Positions 3,417 through 21,069 of a stretch of DNA of 32,000 nt are shown piece by piece. Each line of letters begins with the position of its first letter. The first letter of the stretch is position 1. The stretch covers positions 360,001 through 392,000 of the forward strand of contig JAFVFD010000005.1 of the NCBI GenBank assembly GCA_017475605.1. The letters are read 5' to 3'. Source of the DNA: Alphaproteobacteria bacterium (GTDB lineage Bacteria; Pseudomonadota; Alphaproteobacteria; Rs-D84). The notes under the pieces are model-generated. The model had not been told where the DNA came from, did not search any database, and worked only from the letters and a program-made list of their open reading frames with translations. The translations under genes were made by a program, and so were the position numbers.

Positions 3417-3464
3417 TAAACTCTCTCTCGCACAATATTGTTAAGTATTTTAACAATTTTTCTG

Positions 3465-3493
3465 TTGAATTACAATTATTTTTTGTCTAGGAT
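3465..3493 (+). promoter_or_regulatory. Candidate sigma70-type promoter for tRNA-Cys (and possibly recF)
   Basis: TTGAAT (3465..3470), 17-nt spacer, TAGGAT (3488..3493). The predicted TSS is about 7 nt before the tRNA 5' end. Confidence 0.35.
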
Positions 3494-3506
3494 TCAAAGG
3501 CAAATT

Positions 3507-3580
3507 GGCCAGGTGGCAGAGTGGTTATGCAGAGGACTGCAAATCCTTGTATGCCGGTTCGATTCCGACCCTGGCCTCCA
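3507..3580 (+). tRNA. tRNA-Cys (anticodon GCA), CCA encoded
   Basis: Hand-folded cloverleaf. The 7-bp acceptor stem is GGCCAGG/CCTGGCC, the anticodon loop is CUGCAAA, the T-loop is TTCGATT (one C-A mismatch in the T stem), and the 3' end is TCCA. Confidence 0.9.
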
Positions 3581-3593
3581 GATTTCTTGTATT

Positions 3594-4670
3594 ATGATTG
3601 AAACGCTTGTACTTACCGATTTTCGTAACCATACAATGTGTCGAATAAAAACGCATGGTCGGCAAAATGTGATTATTGTTGGCCCGAATGGTGCCGGTAA
3701 AACAGCAATACTGGAAGCTCTTTCTATATTATCTGGCGATCGCGGAATGCGTGCCGCACAAATGACGGATATTGCGCGCTTTGGTGGCAACGGCGGTTTT
3801 TCAATTTTCGCAACATTATCAGACGATACTGAATTATCTGTATCTTTTGTATCGGGCGATGCAAATCGCCACGCAAAAATAGACGGCGATAATGCGCCAT
3901 TGGCCGATTTAACATCGCATTTACCAATGGTGTGGATAACCCCACGCGAAGACAGACTTTTTGTCGATTCCGCCGCCGAAAGACGCGCGTTTTTTGATCG
4001 CCTGGTATCAAGTTTTGATTCCACACATTCGGGGCGCGTTGCGCGGTTTACTAAATTATTATCTGAACGCGCGTTCGCATTAAAATCTGGGCGCGATATG
4101 CGCTGGGTTGATGCGCTGGACGATCAAATCGCCGCCACCGCCACCGCTATCGCAGATGCGCGAATAAAATACGCGGGCGAATTAAATTATTTTCTGGAAA
4201 ATTGCGCGGTGTCGGTGTCTGGAATGTTGGAACAAATGTTCATTGACCAACGGTCAGCGGGCGATATTGAACGCGCATATCGTGAATACCTGGGAAATAA
4301 TCGTGAAATCGTTGGCGATAAAATGGTAATTGATGGTGTACATAAATCAGATTTTGGTGTGTTTAATAAACAATTAAAATTACCTGCGCATTTAACAAGT
4401 ACCGGCCAACAAAAGACCGTTTTAATGGAATTGATTTTGGCACACGCAAAATTATTACATACACGCACAAACAAAAAACCATTTATTTTATTGGACGAGG
4501 CCGCTGCCCACCTTGATGCGAATGCCCGCGCAAAATTGTTTGCGGACCTGGCCACATCAGAGGCGCAGGTTTGGGCAACCGGACTGGATGCGGATGCATT
4601 CAGTGATGTGCCAAATGCTGTATTTGTTTCTTGCGCGGATGGCGATATAAGTAATATACTGGTTTCATAA
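3594..4670 (+). CDS. recF: DNA replication and repair protein RecF
   Basis: N-terminus MIETLVLTDFRNH, Walker A GPNGAGKTAILEA, signature STGQQKT, Walker B ILLDEAAAHLD. The start was moved from 3438 to the ATG at 3594 because the longer ORF reads through the tRNA gene. Confidence 0.9.
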   Translation: MIETLVLTDFRNHTMCRIKTHGRQNVIIVGPNGAGKTAILEALSILSGDRGMRAAQMTDIARFGGNGGFSIFATLSDDTELSVSFVSGDANRHAKIDGDNAPLADLTSHLPMVWITPREDRLFVDSAAERRAFFDRLVSSFDSTHSGRVARFTKLLSERAFALKSGRDMRWVDALDDQIAATATAIADARIKYAGELNYFLENCAVSVSGMLEQMFIDQRSAGDIERAYREYLGNNREIVGDKMVIDGVHKSDFGVFNKQLKLPAHLTSTGQQKTVLMELILAHAKLLHTRTNKKPFILLDEAAAHLDANARAKLFADLATSEAQVWATGLDADAFSDVPNAVFVSCADGDISNILVS

Positions 4671-4681
4671 CAGGAATGGAA

Positions 4682-5149
4682 ATGGCGAAAATAAACTATC
4701 AGGAATTATTGGACAACGCACTTAAATCGGTCGTAAAAGAGGCTTTGATTTATGCCCAGGTAAACGGCCTTGGGGACGGAACGCATTTCTTTATTACATT
4801 TAAAACGCGTGACCCGGGGGTTGTTTTGCCGGACTTTTTGCGCATGCGCTATCCGGACATAATGACAATAGTTTTACAGTATTCGTACAATAACCTTAAT
4901 GTGTCCGATCGTGAATTTGGGGTACAATTGACATTTGATGGTCGCCCGTTCTTTATTCGCGTGCCGTTTTCTGCGTTGGTAGAGTTCAAGGACCCATCAA
5001 CCGATTTTATGTTGTCGTTTCATCCAAAATCAACACCGGCGGCGGCGGATAACGATATGGAATTACCGCTGGACGAAAAACCCGGCACCGTCCCCGATGA
5101 TAAACGTGTTGTGTCCCTGGACGAATTTAGAAAGAAAAGAAATCAATAA
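4682..5149 (+). CDS. sspB: ClpXP adaptor SspB (alphaproteobacterial type)
   Basis: The core matches the SspB fold pattern (THFFITFKTRDPGVVLPDFLRMRYPDIMTIVLQYSYNNL...FRVPFSALVEFKDPS). A disordered linker is followed by a C-terminal ClpX-binding-like tail, VVSLDEFRKKRNQ. An AGGA SD lies 6 nt before the ATG at 4682; the alternative ATG is at 4676. Confidence 0.75.
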   Translation: MAKINYQELLDNALKSVVKEALIYAQVNGLGDGTHFFITFKTRDPGVVLPDFLRMRYPDIMTIVLQYSYNNLNVSDREFGVQLTFDGRPFFIRVPFSALVEFKDPSTDFMLSFHPKSTPAAADNDMELPLDEKPGTVPDDKRVVSLDEFRKKRNQ

Positions 5150-5211
5150 TAGTTTGTGATTGCCGGTCGTCATCCCCGCGCAGGCGAAAACGCTAGGCGT
5201 TTTATAACAAT

Positions 5212-5239
5212 TTGCTTTTATTCGGAATTATGTTAAAAT
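5212..5239 (+). promoter_or_regulatory. Candidate promoter of leader RNA A
   Basis: TTGCTT (5212..5217), 16-nt spacer, TAAAAT (5234..5239), with a TGT extended -10 context. Confidence 0.5.
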
Positions 5240-5245
5240 CAGAAT

Positions 5246-5430
5246 TGAATCCAATGGGAATTGGGTTCGGGCTGTGGTAAGCCTTCAAAAATCCGGTGCA
5301 AAAGCATCGTAATCTGAAAATTCGGCGCAAACGCACCGTTTGAGCCCCGATTTATTGGTCGGGGAGCAGACTAGTTTCTTGGTCTTTACCACCTCTCCGG
5401 TCACCAATTTCGTTGGTGGTTTATTTTTTT
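5246..5430 (+). promoter_or_regulatory. Structured leader RNA A (about 185 nt, riboswitch/attenuator-like, class unknown)
   Basis: Hand-folded helices. H1 is 5247..5255/5260..5268 with a GGGA loop. The long-range H2 is 5274..5281/5385..5392. Three hairpins are 5294..5309, 5345..5364 and 5369..5384. The antiterminator 5354..5366/5393..5408 is mutually exclusive with the terminator at 5401..5419. Boundaries are approximate. Confidence 0.55.
5401..5430 (+). terminator. Intrinsic terminator ending leader A, 18 nt before the next start codon
   Basis: Stem TCACCAA/TTGGTGG, loop TTTCG, then TTTATTTTTTT. Confidence 0.6.
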
Positions 5431-5448
5431 CAAAAAAAGGGGAATGAT

Positions 5449-5805
5449 ATGAAAAAATTATCTTTAACACTGTTTATTTTGTTATGTAGTGCTTGTACGA
5501 TAAGCGACACATACTACAAACCAGATGTCGGCAGAAAAAATGTTGGTTCCGTATACGGAACTATTACTAATGAAAGCACTTCTTTTTTTGGACAATCTGA
5601 AGACACCACCCCAAAATTCGAGAAAATATCAGATTATTGTTGGTATTTATTGGATTTTAAAATGAACAGTGATTGTTCTCCAGATATGATTGCAAACAAT
5701 TATGGTCTGGAAACCATCACAGAAATAAACACACAATGGCAGTTATTCCCTTTTGTGTTAGTACAAAGAACCAATTTAATTGGTATTCCGAAAGAGGATA
5801 AATAA
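5449..5805 (+). CDS. Small secreted protein or possible lipoprotein, function unknown (AT-rich orphan)
   Basis: A GGGGA SD precedes the ATG at 5449. Signal peptide MKKLSLTLFILLCSAC carries an imperfect lipobox (LCSAC). I recognise no conserved domain. Confidence 0.6.
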   Translation: MKKLSLTLFILLCSACTISDTYYKPDVGRKNVGSVYGTITNESTSFFGQSEDTTPKFEKISDYCWYLLDFKMNSDCSPDMIANNYGLETITEINTQWQLFPFVLVQRTNLIGIPKEDK

Positions 5806-5834
5806 AAAACACCGGTATTTGCCGGTGTTTTTTT
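5806..5834. terminator. Bidirectional intrinsic terminator (copy 1 of a repeated palindrome)
   Basis: AAAAACACCGGTATTTGCCGGTGTTTTTTT between convergent genes. The T-tract overlaps the gpsA stop codon. Confidence 0.8.
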
Positions 5835-8330: not shown

Positions 8331-8885
8331 ATGAATAATAAAGTTAAATTTAATAAATACGCAGAACTGTTACGTGATTGGTCGGAACGTATGAACCTTG
8401 TTGCGCCAAGCACCCTGGGCGATATTGAAACGCGCCATTTCGCAGATTCTGCGCAATTGGCGGATGTTTTGCCACACAATGTTTCCATTATTGATTTGGG
8501 CAGTGGTGCCGGTTTTCCCGGCGTTGTTTTGGCTATTTTGGGCTGGAATGTAACATGTATCGAATCGATTGGAAAAAAGGTTGCGTTTTTATCCGCTGTC
8601 AAAGACGAATTAAAATTGGACAACCTGACAATTTTTCATGGTCGTGTCGAAGACTTTGTCCGGCAAATGCCGGCCGATTCTTCAAATTTTGTATTTACCG
8701 CACGTGCTTTTGCACCATTGGTTAAAATTTTGGACTATACAAAATCAAAAAATTGCCGGCTTTTTTTATTAAAAGGCCGGGAAATAGAATCTGAAATATC
8801 TGTCGCAAAAAAGAAATACAAATTCAAATACGAATTAACACCATCTAAAACCGGCGACGGATTTATAATTACTGTTACAAAATAA
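8331..8885 (+). CDS. rsmG: 16S rRNA (guanine527-N7)-methyltransferase RsmG (GidB)
   Basis: SAM-binding motif IDLGSGAGFPGVVLAI and conserved N-terminal LL..W....NL. I prefer the ATG at 8331 over the TTG at 8325 given in the ORF track. Confidence 0.88.
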   Translation: MNNKVKFNKYAELLRDWSERMNLVAPSTLGDIETRHFADSAQLADVLPHNVSIIDLGSGAGFPGVVLAILGWNVTCIESIGKKVAFLSAVKDELKLDNLTIFHGRVEDFVRQMPADSSNFVFTARAFAPLVKILDYTKSKNCRLFLLKGREIESEISVAKKKYKFKYELTPSKTGDGFIITVTK

Positions 8886-8887
8886 AT

Positions 8888-8903
8888 TATTTCATGTGAA
8901 ATA
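8888..8903. promoter_or_regulatory. parS-like ParB binding site 1
   Basis: TATTTCATGTGAAATA matches the canonical parS TGTTTCACGTGAAACA at 13 of 16 positions. It lies immediately upstream of parAB. Confidence 0.6.
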
Positions 8904-8983
8904 ACATATAACATATTGTTTTTAAGTGTTTTTTATGTGCAAAAACCACAACAAAACGAATCGGTATACATCAACCGAAATAT

Positions 8984-8999
8984 TATTTCATATGAAATA
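8984..8999. promoter_or_regulatory. parS-like ParB binding site 2
   Basis: TATTTCATATGAAATA is the core of a perfect 18-bp palindrome, TTATTTCATATGAAATAA (8983..9000). It lies 96 bp from site 1. Confidence 0.6.
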
Positions 9000-9113
9000 A
9001 CAGGTATTGTATTGAGTGTACTGTATTTTTATTGTGTAAAAATATTTGTTTTTTAATCGCTTGACCGGCATAAACTTATTTTTTAATCTTATGTTTGTTA
9101 TGGAAAGGAAATT

Positions 9114-9887
9114 ATGACACAGATAATAGCATTTGCGAATCAAAAGGGCGGGGTTGGAAAAACAACAACCGCTATAAATATTGGTGCGTCGTTGGCAACT
9201 ATTAAACGGCGTGTTTTGTTAATTGACCTGGATTCCCAGGGAAACGCCGGAACGGGCCTTGGGTTCGTACGCAGTGCGCATCGTCAAAGTGTATATGGTG
9301 TTTTGATGGGGACGGCGCATGCCGCGGATAATATTTTAACAACCGCGGTTCCAAATATGCACATAATGCCGTCAACCATGCAATTAGCGGACGCGGAATC
9401 AGAATTATTGGATGTTGAACGTCCACAATATCGCCTGCGTGATGCGTTGATGGAAATTGCACCACATTATGATTATATATTGCTGGACTGTCCGCCGGCA
9501 TTGGGGTTGGTAACAATCAACGCGTTAACGGCGGCAAATTCTGTAATTATTCCTATGCAGTGTGAATTTTACGCACTTGAAGGCATAACCCATATGATTA
9601 ATTCTATTCGGGAAGTAAAAAACCGTTGGAACCCAGAATTAGAAATACTTGGGGTGTTGCTTACCATGTATTCAAAGCAATACGGCCTTACTCGCGCGGT
9701 CGAGGCCGATGTTCGCAAAAAATTCGGTGATGTGGTATTTAAAACAGTTGTTCCGCGTAATGTTCGTGTGTCCGAAGCACCAAGTTTCGGCAAACCGGCA
9801 TTATTTTACGATTTTAATTCATCTGGCGCGCAGGCATATTTGCGTGTCGCCACAGAAGTTATTCAGAAAACAGAGCAGGGGGCTTAA
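9114..9887 (+). CDS. parA: Chromosome partitioning ATPase ParA (Soj)
   Basis: Deviant Walker A KGGVGKTTT, DLDSQGN and DCPP motifs, and an AAAGGA SD. Confidence 0.93.
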   Translation: MTQIIAFANQKGGVGKTTTAINIGASLATIKRRVLLIDLDSQGNAGTGLGFVRSAHRQSVYGVLMGTAHAADNILTTAVPNMHIMPSTMQLADAESELLDVERPQYRLRDALMEIAPHYDYILLDCPPALGLVTINALTAANSVIIPMQCEFYALEGITHMINSIREVKNRWNPELEILGVLLTMYSKQYGLTRAVEADVRKKFGDVVFKTVVPRNVRVSEAPSFGKPALFYDFNSSGAQAYLRVATEVIQKTEQGA

Positions 9888-20210: not shown

Positions 20211-20816
20211 CTATTCGTTTAAAAAAACAGAGATGTTTTTAGCAAAATTTTCTAATGTTGTATGATACTCTTTTGATGTATCTAAAAAAACAAACTTGTT
20301 TTTTGATTCATTTTGATATTGTTTGCTTATGTTTATAAAATTTTGAATGCATAATCTTATTTGTTTATCATCAAGTTTGCTTACCGGGCTATTATTATCA
20401 AATTTTTTAATATTCGTAATTTTTTCATCTATATCCGCATTTGGGTATCCAATTACAACTATTTTGCACTTGTTTTGATCGAACAAATATTCTGATTGAG
20501 AAGGGGTAATTTGTGATCCTTCGAATATTATTGGAAAGTCTGATGTGGTTTCCTTAAAAAACCGTCTAACAAATCGGTAAAAATTACGTCGCAGTAATTT
20601 TTTACTTGTTCTTTTTACCGATGGAAAAATGTGTCGCAACGGTCTAATAAATATTCTCCACGCCAAACTCGCACGCTGGTCTGTTAAGCCACCAATAATA
20701 GCATCGCCTGACATCAATGTAACAGGAATCCCTTCTGTCCCAAGTTGTTCTATAACATATTTTACTAACGTAGATTTTCCTGCACGTGGCACACCAATTA
20801 TTATTAAGTTTTTCAT
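20211..20816 (-). CDS. P-loop NTPase / small-molecule-kinase-like protein, function unknown (AT-rich orphan)
   Basis: Walker A at the N-terminus (IIIGVPRAGKSTL) and a candidate Walker B (PIIFEG). I recognise no other motif. Composition is much more AT-rich than the flanking mutS and truB. Confidence 0.7.
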   Translation of the reverse strand: MKNLIIIGVPRAGKSTLVKYVIEQLGTEGIPVTLMSGDAIIGGLTDQRASLAWRIFIRPLRHIFPSVKRTSKKLLRRNFYRFVRRFFKETTSDFPIIFEGSQITPSQSEYLFDQNKCKIVVIGYPNADIDEKITNIKKFDNNSPVSKLDDKQIRLCIQNFINISKQYQNESKNKFVFLDTSKEYHTTLENFAKNISVFLNE

Positions 20817-20842
20817 TTTGTATTCTGCCTTTTGTTTTTGTT

Positions 20843-20875
20843 AAAAACAAAAACCACCAAAAATGAAATTGGTGG
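20843..20875 (-). terminator. Intrinsic terminator ending leader B, upstream of the P-loop gene
   Basis: On the minus strand: CCACCAA-TTTCATTT-TTGGTGG followed by TTTTTGTTTTT. Confidence 0.6.
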
Positions 20876-21034
20876 CAGGAGGTTCGTTACTATAATTGTT
20901 AGGAAAATAGTGTACAGTATTGGATATTTCTGCACCCTCCTGCCATATAACGGCAGGAGATGTTTTTCATCATTCCCTGATGCTAACAATTTCGAGGTAA
21001 CGACACCCCAATACAGATAAAATCACCTGTATCA
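20843..21034 (-). promoter_or_regulatory. Structured leader RNA B (about 190 nt, apparent paralogue of leader A)
   Basis: Hand-folded on the minus strand. H1 is 21032..21027/21016..21011. The long-range H2 is 21002..20997/20890..20885 plus 20991..20983/20902..20894. Three hairpins are 20982..20968, 20959..20937 and 20935..20912. The 10-bp antiterminator 20945..20936/20882..20873 overlaps the terminator 5' arm. Boundaries are approximate. Confidence 0.55.
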
Positions 21035-21040
21035 AGCCTG

Positions 21041-21069
21041 ATTATACATTAAATTTTTAAAAATAACAA
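21041..21069 (-). promoter_or_regulatory. Candidate promoter of leader B
   Basis: On the minus strand: TTGTTA (21069..21064), 17-nt spacer, TATAAT (21046..21041), preceded by TGT. Confidence 0.5.

What the first reader, a model, noticed from the sequence alone, without database searches (positions are those of the whole stretch)
5212..5448. Riboswitch- or attenuator-like structured leader (A) upstream of an AT-rich orphan secreted-protein gene
A good promoter (TTGCTT-16-TAAAAT) drives about 185 nt of non-coding RNA. That RNA ends in an intrinsic terminator (TCACCAA/TTGGTGG plus a U-tract) only 18 nt before the start codon at 5449. The RNA folds by hand into several elements. H1 is a 9-bp hairpin capped by a GNRA loop (5247..5268). 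An 8-bp long-range helix (5274..5281 with 5385..5392) closes a multi-stem domain. A sequestor hairpin lies at 5345..5364. The segment 5354..5366 can alternatively form 13 bp with 5393..5408, which consumes the terminator 5' arm. This three-way exclusive pairing is the classic expression platform of a ligand- or factor-controlled transcription attenuator. By eye I could not match it to TPP, cobalamin, glycine, SAM-II, GEMM, fluoride, ykkC or yybP-ykoY consensus cores. A second copy with the same architecture lies at 20843..21069.
Basis: partly seen in the sequence, partly recalled or inferred. Interest (0 to 1): 0.68.

Follow-up and report, generated by a model that had tools for sequence, protein, structure and literature searches.

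The report
New terminator-switch leader RNA family
Both "leaders" in this window are real members of a previously undescribed family of about 190-nt structured RNAs that sit, with their own promoter and terminator, in front of unrelated accessory genes in uncultured gut and rumen bacteria and their phages, and that look built to switch those genes on or off.

Summary
This includes the second copy, which lies on the minus strand.

- **Rfam:** Release 15 has no hit for either window copy.
- **Homologues:** Related metagenomic contigs gave seven further loci, falling into three sequence subtypes.
- **Cross-detection:** A covariance model built only from A-type relatives finds leader B full-length (31.7 bits, E=3e-7). 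A model built only from B-type finds A.
- **Shared architecture:** All copies have a sigma-70 promoter placed so the RNA starts at hairpin H1. Next come a small hairpin P2, a 'sequestor' hairpin (r1:r2), and a segment r3. The P2 loop pairs with a distant 3' segment, and every paralogue uses a different sequence for this pairing. r3 copies r1, pairs 9-10 bp with r2 and overlaps the terminator 5' arm. A terminator follows, then the SD/ATG of an unrelated ORF.
- **Covariation:** r1, r2 and r3 change together across subtypes, as a terminator/antiterminator switch predicts.
- **Default state:** The predicted default fold is the terminator (gene OFF). The signal that switches it is unknown.
- **Distribution:** The element is patchy. 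Closest relatives lack leader A and its ORF, which form a 655-bp insertion. Some lineages lack B.
- **Closest known family:** sRNA-Xcc1 (RF02221), and only below threshold, in relatives.

The RNA family is real and looks new. The attenuator mechanism is likely. Ligand-binding riboswitch status is unproven.

The parts
5150..5805 (+). Inserted cassette: leader A with its own promoter plus the 118-aa ORF. It lies exactly between the sspB stop codon and the sspB/gpsA bidirectional terminator.
   Evidence: The closest relatives (SspB 93-95% identical, GpsA up to 92%) read TCAATAA + AAACACCGGnnnnnCCGGTGTTTT + gpsA with nothing in between.
5212..5239 (+). Promoter of leader A: TTGCTT, 16-nt spacer, TAAAAT. 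The -10 box ends 6 nt before the UGAA that begins H1.
   Evidence: Read from the sequence. All six full-length members first compared have a -35/-10 pair in the same register relative to UGAA/UGAU.
5246..5431 (+). Leader RNA A, A-type, about 186 nt.
   Evidence: CM R1 scores 161 bits. Fold z = -3.5. No Rfam hit.
5247..5268 (+). H1: 5'-terminal 9-bp hairpin with a GGGA loop.
   Evidence: Identical in L166, L213 and L214. The stem covaries in the B-type copies.
5269..5284 (+). P2 local hairpin, GGGC/GCCU, with the 8-nt loop L2 (UGUGGUAA, 5273-5280).
   Evidence: The closing pair is C-G in four members, A-U in L166 and U-A in B (read from the sequences).
5294..5309 (+). P3 hairpin, CGGUGC-AAAA-GCAUCG.
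   Evidence: L166 has CGGCAC/GUGUCG, two compensatory changes. P3 is absent in L240.
5345..5366 (+). Sequestor hairpin: r1 (5345-5352, CCCCGAUU) paired with r2 (5357-5366, GGUCGGGGAG).
   Evidence: 100% of cells paired in six sequences (helix 5).
5385..5392 (+). S2b: the 3' strand of the long-range or pseudoknot helix with L2.
   Evidence: Cognate versus non-cognate duplex test: cognate is the best of 5040 permutations.
5393..5405 (+). r3 (CUCUCCGGUCACC): a degenerate copy of r1 that can pair with r2 and overlaps the terminator 5' arm.
   Evidence: Forcing r2:r3 costs only +2.3 kcal/mol in A. In relatives r3 is a perfect 9-10-nt complement of r2.
5399..5431 (+). Intrinsic terminator: GGUCACCAA-UUUCG-UUGGUGGUU followed by a U-tract.
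   Evidence: Listed by the terminator scan. The hairpin is conserved and covaries (A-U to G-C) across members.
5439..5805 (+). SD (GGGGA, 5439-5443) and the 118-aa lipoprotein-like orphan ORF (ATG at 5449).
   Evidence: No promoter-like site lies on the + strand between the terminator and the ATG.
21041..21069 (-). Promoter of leader B: TTGTTA, 17-nt spacer, TATAAT.
   Evidence: 10 of 12 matches in the promoter scan.
20839..21034 (-). Leader RNA B, B-type, about 196 nt. Its elements are: H1 21033-21010; P2 and L2 21009-20994; r1 20959-20951; r2 20944-20936; S2b 20890-20884; r3 20882-20874; terminator 20876-20853.
   Evidence: R1 scores 31.7 bits, E=3e-7. R2 scores 237 bits. Orthologues occur in L239 and L240.
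20211..20816 (-). 201-aa P-loop NTPase gene downstream of leader B, syntenic between truB and mutS.

Best explanation
Leaders A and B are two paralogous members, of different subtypes, of a lineage-restricted family of cis-acting 5' leader RNAs of about 180-235 nt. The family occurs in uncultured gut and rumen bacteria labelled 'Alphaproteobacteria' in public MAG records, and in two phage-like contigs.

**Layout of each unit.** Every unit is self-contained. It has its own sigma-70 promoter, an RNA that starts at hairpin H1, and an intrinsic terminator 15-45 nt before the SD/ATG of the next gene (about 150 nt in the partial member L154).

**Proposed mechanism (inferred).** The RNA can adopt two folds.
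- **OFF, the default and thermodynamically favoured fold.** A long closing helix forms from GGGG:CCCC plus the variable helix L2:S2b. The local sequestor hairpin r1:r2 forms and the terminator is complete, so transcription stops and the gene stays silent.
- **ON.** The 5' GGGG is held in the small P2 hairpin, while L2:S2b persists as a pseudoknot. r2 leaves r1 and pairs 9-10 bp with r3. This removes 2-4 nt of the terminator 5' arm, so RNA polymerase reads through.
- **The switching signal is unknown.** It could be a protein, a small molecule or a kinetic cue.

**Shown.** The family exists, the helices are conserved and covary, r2 is complementary to both r1 and r3, and the element has been inserted at these loci and has a patchy distribution.

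**Inferred.** That termination and read-through actually occur, and that the two folds interconvert in response to a signal.
For: **Family membership**
- Homologues were found in L166, L212, L213, L214, L154, L219, L239 and L240.
- The two covariance models detect each other's subtype. R1 finds B at 31.7 bits. R2 finds A at 25.8 bits, L212 at 30.2 bits and L219 at 44.7 bits.

**Structure**
- All six minimum-free-energy folds have the same architecture.
- RNAalifold gives 44 pairs, 9 of them with compensatory changes.
- Counting on the model-fitted alignment gives 96.9% of cells paired and 20 of 44 pairs with changes on both sides. No shuffle out of 500 reaches this, and slid controls reach at most 52%.
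- L2:S2b differs in all seven independent members. Cognate pairs average -5.7 kcal/mol against -1.2 for non-cognate pairs, and the cognate arrangement is the best of 5040 permutations.

**Switch elements: r1 / r2 / r3 change together**
- A-type: CCCCGAC / GGUCGGGGAG / CUCCCCGACC.
- B (window): CUCCUGCC / GGCAGGAGG / CCUCCUGCC.
- L239: CUCCUACUG / GGUAGGA / CCUCCUACC.
- L240: the same r1 and r2 as L239, but r3 is CCUCCUGCC, giving a U.G intermediate.
- C-type: CUCCAACU / GGUUGGAGG / CCUCCAACC.
- Sources.

**Energetics**
- The OFF fold is favoured by 11-17 kcal/mol (2.3 in A) before the pseudoknot, worth about -4 to -8, is credited to the ON fold.

**Selection**
- The B-type leader has 72% invariant columns, against 57% for the P-loop CDS it precedes.

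**Cis role**
- The element lies upstream of and co-oriented with an ORF at all eight distinct loci.
- No promoter-like site lies between the terminator and the ATG in A.

**Independent support for r2:r3**
- It corresponds to the closing helix of the Rfam sRNA-Xcc1 consensus in sub-threshold alignments of L214, L213 and L212.
Against: - There are no expression data. All sequences come from metagenomes.
- Only about nine loci and three subtypes are known. Within a subtype r1, r2 and r3 barely vary. Within the B-type alone the shuffle controls are not significant (161/500 and 331/500).
- The alignment used was fitted to the model, which favours the structure.
- The U-tract is weak in L213 (AUUAAUUUAU).
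- In B, r2:r3 overlaps the terminator by only about 2-3 nt.
- The nested-only energies strongly favour OFF.
- No unpaired nucleotides are conserved across all subtypes, as a ligand pocket would require.
- A has lost the P6 domain and L240 has lost P3.
- A weak promoter-like match (9 of 12) lies between the terminator and the ATG in B.
Confidence: 0.6

Rival explanations
1. It is a true small-molecule riboswitch of the ON type. The aptamer is either the r2-P6-r3 three-way junction, which resembles sRNA-Xcc1, or the H1-P2-pseudoknot domain. Ligand binding stabilises the r2:r3 helix and prevents terminator formation.
For: - The expression platform follows the standard ON-riboswitch logic: the 3' strand of the closing helix overlaps the terminator.
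- The fold contains a pseudoknot and a multi-helix junction.
- The leader is more conserved than the adjacent CDS.
Against: - The downstream genes are unrelated orphans with no shared pathway.
- No unpaired nucleotides are invariant across the A, B and C subtypes.
- Window copy A lacks P6 altogether, and L240 lacks P3.
- H1 and P2 differ in sequence between subtypes.
Confidence: 0.15
2. It is a protein-dependent antitermination or attenuation leader. A host or phage RNA-binding factor recognises H1 (a GNRA-capped hairpin, as boxB is) and/or P2, and shifts the fold or the polymerase towards read-through.
For: - H1 is invariant in sequence, not just in pairing, among A-type paralogues whose other helices have diverged.
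- A-type copies occur in phage-like contigs as moron-like units: next to a terminase in L213, and next to a serine recombinase and a retron in L214.
- The default-OFF energetics call for an activator.
Against: - No candidate protein was identified.
- B and C subtypes have different H1 sequences, so each subtype would need its own factor or a shape-based recognition.
- No co-occurring gene was found in the loci examined.
Confidence: 0.25
3. It is mainly a stand-alone trans-acting small RNA, as sRNA-Xcc1 and Brt1 have been described. Its terminator is constitutive, and the position upstream of an ORF is secondary.
For: - It has its own promoter, a 5' hairpin and a strong terminator.
- It is highly conserved.
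- The closest Rfam family is annotated as an sRNA gene.
- The Bartonella Brt RNAs show the same layout and were proposed to act both in trans and in cis (PMC5387305).
Against: - The coordinated r1/r2/r3 changes are not explained by a purely trans-acting role.
- The ORFs have no promoter of their own, so they depend on read-through.
- The most variable segment (L2) is complementary to the RNA itself rather than being a conserved seed.
Confidence: 0.2
4. Control is translational. The CCUCC/CCCC segments (r1 and r3) act as anti-SD sequences that mask the downstream SD, and the 'terminator' is merely a structural hairpin.
For: - r1 and r3 resemble the 16S anti-SD, while r2 and the gene's SD are GGAG- or GGGG-like.
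- The SD flavour follows the subtype: GGGGA in A and L166, GGCAG in B.
- L213 has a poor U-tract.
Against: - In the minimum-free-energy folds that include the SD, it is not paired with r1 or r3.
- Most members have good U-tracts directly after the hairpin.
Confidence: 0.1
5. It is a mobile-element remnant (MITE or cassette scar), a retron non-coding RNA, or a leader-peptide attenuator. Its structure would then be incidental or serve another process.
For: - The element has been inserted at these loci and is patchily distributed.
- L214 has a type VI retron HTH+RT immediately upstream.
- An AUG in the H1 loop opens an ORF, MGIGFG..., of 7 to more than 60 codons (reading).
Against: - There are no terminal inverted repeats, the orientation relative to the ORF is fixed, and the helices carry compensatory changes.
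- Eight of nine loci have no RT. Type VI retron RNA lies upstream of SP-HTH-RT, not downstream of the RT (bioRxiv 10.1101/2025.10.22.683967).
- The small ORF has no SD, its AUG is buried in a 9-bp stem, its stop position varies, and B-type copies lack the AUG.
Confidence: 0.04

Closest known systems
sRNA-Xcc1 (Rfam RF02221), an sRNA borne on integrons, transposons, plasmids and phages
   Same: - The r2-P6-r3 domain of A-type relatives aligns to the full 87-nt model. Our antiterminator helix r2:r3 corresponds to the model's closing helix, and the AUACAAnAC...GAAAGG hairpin matches (L214 37.1 bits, L213 25.3, L212 19.0).
- Xcc1-family RNAs also sit upstream of variable accessory ORFs in mobile DNA. 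Examples are symE in Xanthomonas integron cassettes and ORF6N/ant genes in phages.
   Different: - All scores are below the 53-bit gathering threshold.
- The two window copies give no hit at all.
- Our RNAs are two to three times longer. They add H1, P2 and the pseudoknot, the r1 competitor and an overlapping terminator.
- Model R1 does not recognise genuine Xcc1-like loci in Aaphi23 or P13374, which also lack the overlapping terminator.
- Xcc1 is described as a trans-acting sRNA.
Brt1-9 RNAs of Bartonella henselae (PMC5387305)
   Same: - A lineage-specific, multi-copy family of about 200-nt RNAs (194-203 nt).
- Each copy lies immediately upstream of a gene and ends in a terminator-like 3' structure.
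- They were proposed to be terminator/antiterminator 'riboswitches' with an unknown trigger.
- Both are reported from bacteria labelled Alphaproteobacteria.
   Different: - All Brt downstream genes are homologous (Trp HTH proteins), whereas ours are unrelated orphans.
Classical ON-type transcriptional riboswitches (e.g. the adenine pbuE/ydhL riboswitch) and protein-dependent attenuators (own knowledge)
   Same: Three mutually exclusive pairings form the expression platform: sequestor, antiterminator and terminator. The 3' strand of a closing helix overlaps the terminator.
   Different: - No ligand or protein is known.
- No binding-pocket nucleotides are conserved across subtypes.
- The regulated genes share no function.
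- The unit carries its own promoter and occurs as a portable insert.
Lambdoid late leader (PR'-6S RNA-tR') and phage morons (own knowledge)
   Same: - A promoter, a short leader RNA and a strong terminator, which must be read through to express downstream genes.
- Autonomous transcription units inserted between conserved genes, including in phage genomes (L213, L214).
   Different: No Q or N homologue or qut/nut site has been linked to these RNAs, and here the RNA itself carries a competing antiterminator helix.

Membership tests
sRNA-Xcc1 (RF02221) | cmscan score at or above the gathering threshold (53 bits) | tested here: not met
   Window A and B give no Xcc1 hit even at E<=10. Relatives score 37.1, 25.3 and 19.0 bits.
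sRNA-Xcc1 (RF02221) | Three-way junction: a closing helix plus two hairpins, including the conserved AUACAAnACCC-GAAA-GGG | tested here: not met
   Window copy A has only one short hairpin between r2 and S2b, because the P6 domain is absent. B has a different P6. The feature is present only in L214, L213 and L212.
sRNA-Xcc1 (RF02221) | Location in an integron cassette, transposon, plasmid or phage | tested here: inconclusive
   A is a 655-bp chromosomal insertion, and L213 and L214 are phage-like. attC and intI were not searched for, and BLAST against the plasmid and phage collections found nothing.
Intrinsic-terminator attenuator (terminator/antiterminator leader) | Promoter, then a leader, then a G+C hairpin with a U-tract just upstream of the regulated ORF | tested here: met
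   The same layout occurs in eight further loci.
Intrinsic-terminator attenuator (terminator/antiterminator leader) | An alternative helix that is mutually exclusive with the terminator and is conserved | tested here: met
   r2:r3 forms 9-10 bp and overlaps the terminator 5' arm. r1, r2 and r3 change together in three subtypes. Statistical power is low because there are few sequences.
Intrinsic-terminator attenuator (terminator/antiterminator leader) | Termination and conditional read-through actually occur | not testable with these tools
   No transcriptome data or biochemistry was available.
Metabolite riboswitch | A conserved aptamer with invariant ligand-contact nucleotides across the family | tested here: inconclusive
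   Within each subtype the sequence is highly conserved. Across the A, B and C subtypes only helices, G-runs and an A-rich linker are shared, and whole domains (P6, P3) are dispensable.
Metabolite riboswitch | Association with genes of a coherent pathway or transport function | tested here: not met
   The downstream genes are a 118-aa lipoprotein-like ORF, a P-loop NTPase, four different ORFs with signal peptides, a 102-aa ORF, and an operon of 82, 181 and 188 aa. Apart from weak sub-threshold P-loop matches for the NTPase, none has a Pfam family.
Any Rfam 15 family (TPP, cobalamin, GEMM, T-box and others) | A hit at the gathering score | tested here: not met
   Only tRNA was found in the window and in eight related loci.
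Retron non-coding RNA (msr-msd or type VI hyRNA) | Adjacent retron reverse transcriptase, with the RNA upstream of it | tested here: not met
   No RT lies near A or B. Only L214 has an RT (type VI), and there the RNA lies downstream of it with its own promoter. Type VI RNA precedes SP-HTH-RT.

The most novel reading that the evidence does not exclude
These leaders may represent a new class of portable 'promoter + sensor + terminator' cassette. In it, an sRNA-Xcc1-like junction, or the H1-P2 pseudoknot domain, would sense a small molecule or an infection or host signal and license expression of mobile accessory genes. By extension, the widespread sRNA-Xcc1 family in integron cassettes and phages would be a cis-acting regulatory element rather than a trans-acting sRNA.
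Probability: 0.2. Interest if true: 0.8.

Novelty: new variant of a known kind. Interest (0 to 1): 0.62.

Why it matters
If the mechanism holds, this is an undescribed family of regulatory RNAs that travels as a plug-in unit. It has its own promoter, a switchable terminator and a variable 'address' helix. It gates horizontally acquired, mostly secreted or surface orphan genes in abundant but uncultured gut and rumen bacteria and their phages.

It would give a handle on how accessory and moron genes are kept silent until needed.

It offers a compact natural design for orthogonal terminator switches, because each paralogue has its own L2:S2b pairing.

It also raises a testable hypothesis about the poorly understood sRNA-Xcc1 family of integrons and phages, namely that it acts in cis.

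There is a practical point for annotation as well. Gene callers have swallowed the RNA into an over-extended ORF in L219-L228.

Tried and rejected
**Searches that led nowhere**
It returned 120 chance matches in unrelated phyla, with no similarity beyond the hairpin. This was a wasted scan.
2. BLAST of leader A and of the L214 RNA against the phage and plasmid collections found nothing.
3. Rfam gave nothing for the window copies, either at gathering scores or at E<=10.
4. A looser H1 pattern in IMG/VR gave four chance hits inside coding sequences. B-type and C-type patterns were absent from IMG/VR.
5. nhmmer and a custom scan for the architecture (r1 hairpin, r3 repeat, terminator) found no further members in about 630 kb of DNA from the clade. 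The only extra hits were tandem sspB terminators.

**Hypotheses rejected**
6. Retron RNA was rejected on gene order and the absence of an RT.
7. Leader-peptide attenuation was rejected. The mini-ORF MGIGFG... has no SD, its AUG is buried in a stem, and its stop position varies.
8. The lipoprotein homologue P0032 (50% identity) has no such leader. It follows a tRNA gene instead, so the leader is not tied to that protein family.
9. R1 does not recognise genuine Xcc1-like loci in Aaphi23 or P13374, so the two families are not simply the same.

**Technical failures**
10. Several remote calls failed. The planned pairwise-identity script was replaced by counting invariant columns in alignments A7 and A8.
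Full report
**1. The observation**

These are:
- the promoter TTGCTT-16-TAAAAT (5212-5239);
- the 9-bp hairpin H1 with a GGGA loop (5247-5268);
- the 8-bp long-range helix between 5274-5281 and 5385-5392;
- the hairpin at 5345-5364;
- the alternative pairing of 5354-5366 with 5393-5408;
- the terminator at 5399-5421 with its T-run (also listed);
- the ATG at 5449.

The RNA folds better than any of 200 shuffles (z = -3.5).

The second copy is real but lies on the minus strand. Its promoter is at 21069-21041 (10 of 12 matches), the RNA spans 21034-20839, and the terminator is at 20876-20853. Its fold has z = -7.05.

Rfam 15 reports only a tRNA in the window and nothing meaningful for either leader at E<=10.

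**2. Source and local history**

The flanking genes are sspB and gpsA for leader A, and truB and mutS for leader B. The contigs come from rumen and gut metagenomes. Public records label close SspB homologues 'Alphaproteobacteria bacterium' MAGs.

I fetched 80 related sspB loci. In the closest relatives the sspB stop codon is followed directly by the bidirectional terminator AAACACCGG...CCGGTGTTTT and then gpsA. In the window, 655 bp (5150-5805) sit exactly between that stop codon and that terminator. These 655 bp carry leader A with its promoter and the 118-aa ORF.

That ORF is an orphan. It has one other protein cluster, at 50% identity, and no Pfam family. Its single homologue sits in a different context without the leader.

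Leader B precedes a P-loop gene that is syntenic in relatives. Four lineages have only a 75-80-nt truB/P-loop spacer (L126, L127, L241, L242-244). Two lineages carry an orthologous leader (L239, L240).

**3. A family, not two look-alikes**

| Member | Subtype | Where it lies |
|---|---|---|
| L212 | A | after sspB, before a 102-aa ORF |
| L166 | A | before a 287-aa Cys-rich secreted ORF |
| L213 | A | IMG/VR contig, next to a terminase, leading three small ORFs |
| L214 | A | IMG/VR contig, after a serine recombinase and a type VI retron, before a large secreted protein |
| L154 | C | partial, cut by the contig end |
| L219 (and near-identical L220-L223, L225-L228) | C | between mreB and a lipoprotein-like ORF |
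| L239, L240 | B | upstream of P-loop orthologues |

Model R1 was built from five A-type sequences only. It finds B over its full length at 31.7 bits, E=3e-7. Model R2 was built from the three B-type sequences only. It finds A at 25.8 bits, L212 at 30.2, L219 at 44.7 and L154 at 24.1.

In all six full-length members first compared, the -10 box ends 6 nt before UGAA/UGAU. The RNA therefore begins at H1.

**4. Anatomy and covariation**

All six minimum-free-energy folds have the same architecture. In 5' to 3' order it is:
- H1;
- a long closing helix, made of GGGG:CCCC, then a variable helix L2:S2b, then a second variable helix;
- this closing helix encloses P3, the r1:r2 hairpin and P6;
- the terminator.

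RNAalifold on the A-type alignment predicts 44 pairs, 9 with compensatory changes. On the six-sequence model-fitted alignment, 96.9% of cells are paired and 20 of 44 pairs have changes on both sides. None of 500 shuffles reaches this, and slid controls reach at most 52%. This alignment leans towards the structure because it was fitted to the model.

The L2:S2b helix differs in every independent member:

| Member | L2 strand | S2b strand |
|---|---|---|
| A | GUGGUAA | UUACCAC |
| L214 | UGAGAA | UUCUCA |
| L213 | UGGUG | CACCA |
| L166 | UUAGAACA | UGUUCUAA |
| L212 | UUCACAG | UUGUGAA |
| B | UCGUUAC | GUAACGA |
| L219 | UGAUAAC | GUUAUCA |

Cognate duplexes average -5.7 kcal/mol and non-cognate duplexes -1.2. 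The cognate arrangement is the single best of 5040 permutations.

A small local hairpin, P2 (GGGC/GCCY), flanks L2. Its closing pair is C-G, A-U (L166) or U-A (B). L2:S2b can therefore exist either within the long helix or as an H-type pseudoknot on P2. I read this from the sequences.

**5. The switch elements**

r2 is complementary both to r1, giving a local hairpin of 7-9 bp, and to r3, giving 9-10 bp. r3 overlaps the terminator 5' arm. The three segments change together across subtypes:

| Copy | r1 | r2 | r3 |
|---|---|---|---|
| A-type | CCCCGAC | GGUCGGGGAG | CUCCCCGACC |
| L166 | as A-type | ends ..UG | begins CG.. |
| B (window) | CUCCUGCC | GGCAGGAGG | CCUCCUGCC |
| L239 | CUCCUACUG | GGUAGGA | CCUCCUACC |
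| L240 | as L239 | as L239 | CCUCCUGCC (U.G intermediate) |
| C-type | CUCCAACU | GGUUGGAGG | CCUCCAACC |

Sources.

Within the B-type alone, three sequences are too few for significance. The case rests on the concerted differences between subtypes.

Forcing r2:r3 costs 11-17 kcal/mol, or 2.3 in A, in nested-only folding. P2 then forms spontaneously in these forced folds. The uncounted pseudoknot would return about 4-8 kcal/mol. Transcripts truncated before the terminator 3' arm still prefer r1:r2.

The default state is therefore predicted to be termination, with the gene OFF. This is an inference.

**6. Selection**

Across three species whose P-loop proteins are 64-66% identical to the window's, the B-type leader keeps 141 of 197 columns invariant (72%). 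The CDS keeps 345 of 606 (57%). The few changes in the leader's stems are compensatory. Examples are H1 CAGG/CCUG changing to UGGGC/GCCCG, and P6 GUGCAG/CUGCAC changing to GUGUGG/CCACAC.

**7. What it most likely does**

Each unit is a self-contained promoter-leader-terminator module. At all eight distinct loci, the ORF it precedes is co-oriented with it. In A there is no promoter-like site between the terminator and the ATG. In B there is only a weak 9-of-12 match overlapping the ATG. Downstream expression must therefore pass through the terminator.

The best-supported reading is a conditional transcription attenuator. The trigger is unknown.

The downstream genes are unrelated orphans. By eye, five of the eight start with Sec or lipoprotein signal sequences. 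This argues against a metabolite-pathway riboswitch. It fits better with a common regulatory signal for accessory, surface or moron genes.

**8. Comparison with known families**

The only Rfam family that resembles any member is sRNA-Xcc1 (RF02221). It gives full-length but sub-threshold alignments to the r2-P6-r3 domain:
- L214: 37.1 bits, E=3.6e-5;
- L213: 25.3 bits;
- L212: 19.0 bits.

The gathering threshold is 53 bits. In these alignments the Xcc1 closing helix falls on r2:r3. The window copies do not match, because A has lost P6.

Xcc1-family RNAs are reported upstream of symE in Xanthomonas integron cassettes and upstream of an ORF6N protein in APSE phages. The Rfam consensus hits 30 phage records, next to ant/antB genes in those whose annotation I examined. 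However, these loci lack the overlapping terminator, and R1 does not recognise them.

The best functional analogue is the Brt RNA family of Bartonella. It has nine copies of about 200 nt, each upstream of a trp gene. These were proposed to be terminator riboswitches with an unknown trigger (PMC5387305).

The retron explanation fails on gene order and the absence of an RT.

**9. Verdict**

- The RNA family is real. I put this at about 0.95.
- It is absent from Rfam 15.
- It is best described as a new variant of the terminator/antiterminator leader kind, possibly a distant and much-extended relative of sRNA-Xcc1.
- Conditional attenuation is likely, at about 0.6.
- A ligand-binding riboswitch is possible but unproven, at about 0.15-0.2.

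Noticed in passing
window 5246-5280 (also L212, L213, L214, L166): An AUG in the H1 loop opens a mini-ORF, MGIGFG.... It runs 8 codons in A, 7 in L166, 17 in L213, 19 in L212 and more than 60 in L214. The single H1 difference in L212 (G to C) is synonymous in this frame. There is no SD and the AUG is buried in the stem, so it is probably not translated.
   Followed up: partly
window 5187-5203: A small hairpin, AAAACGC-TAG-GCGTTTT, lies just after sspB inside the inserted DNA. It may substitute as the sspB terminator, because the insertion separated sspB from its original bidirectional terminator (now at 5806-5833).
   Followed up: no
sspB-gpsA spacer in L137, L145, L140, L151, L212, L166, L154: The region downstream of sspB is a hot spot for variable DNA. 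L137 and L145 carry an additional ~260-aa ORF (function not checked). L140 has a 170-nt non-coding insert. L151 has a 2-kb insert. Several loci carry leader+ORF cassettes.
   Followed up: partly
L219-L223 and L225-L228, about 4590-4775 (-): Gene callers extended the downstream lipoprotein-like ORF to 260 or 288 aa, running through the whole C-type RNA. The likely true start is the ATG at about 4565, giving 196 aa. L224, which has an identical SspB, lacks the element.
   Followed up: partly
L214 3449-4746: A type VI retron (HTH_VI plus RT_VI, PADLOC E=1e-74) lies immediately upstream of the A-type RNA in a prophage-like contig that also has a serine recombinase. Its own non-coding RNA and small-protein region, expected upstream of the HTH gene, was not examined.
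   Followed up: partly
L129 3621-3860: The only homologue of the 118-aa lipoprotein follows a tRNA gene and a 24-nt duplicate of that tRNA's 3' end (GAATCCCTTCGCCGCTACCAAAA). This resembles an att-like scar of an integrated element.
   Followed up: no
window 3507-3577: A tRNA gene (59 bits) lies between the outer-membrane efflux gene and the RecF-like ATPase. The mechanical ORF at 3438-4670 (TTG start) overlaps it, so the real start must be downstream. The same tRNA occurs in L212, L154, L166 and L219.
   Followed up: no
window 5422-5438 and 20852-20826 (-): In A and in the B-type copies, the terminator U-tract is followed directly by a complementary A-tract (UUUUUUUCAAAAAAA; UUUUUGUUUUUAACAAAAAC). 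This could form a weak second hairpin just before the SD. Its function is unknown.
   Followed up: no
window 8801-9200: This is the lowest-GC stretch of the window (0.295), upstream of the ORF at 9114-9887. It was not examined.
   Followed up: no
H1 loop versus terminator loop in A-type members: The H1 loop (UGGGAA) is complementary to the terminator loop (UUUC or UUCC), giving 4-5 bp with G.U pairs, so a loop-loop contact is conceivable. B-type copies lack this complementarity.
   Followed up: no
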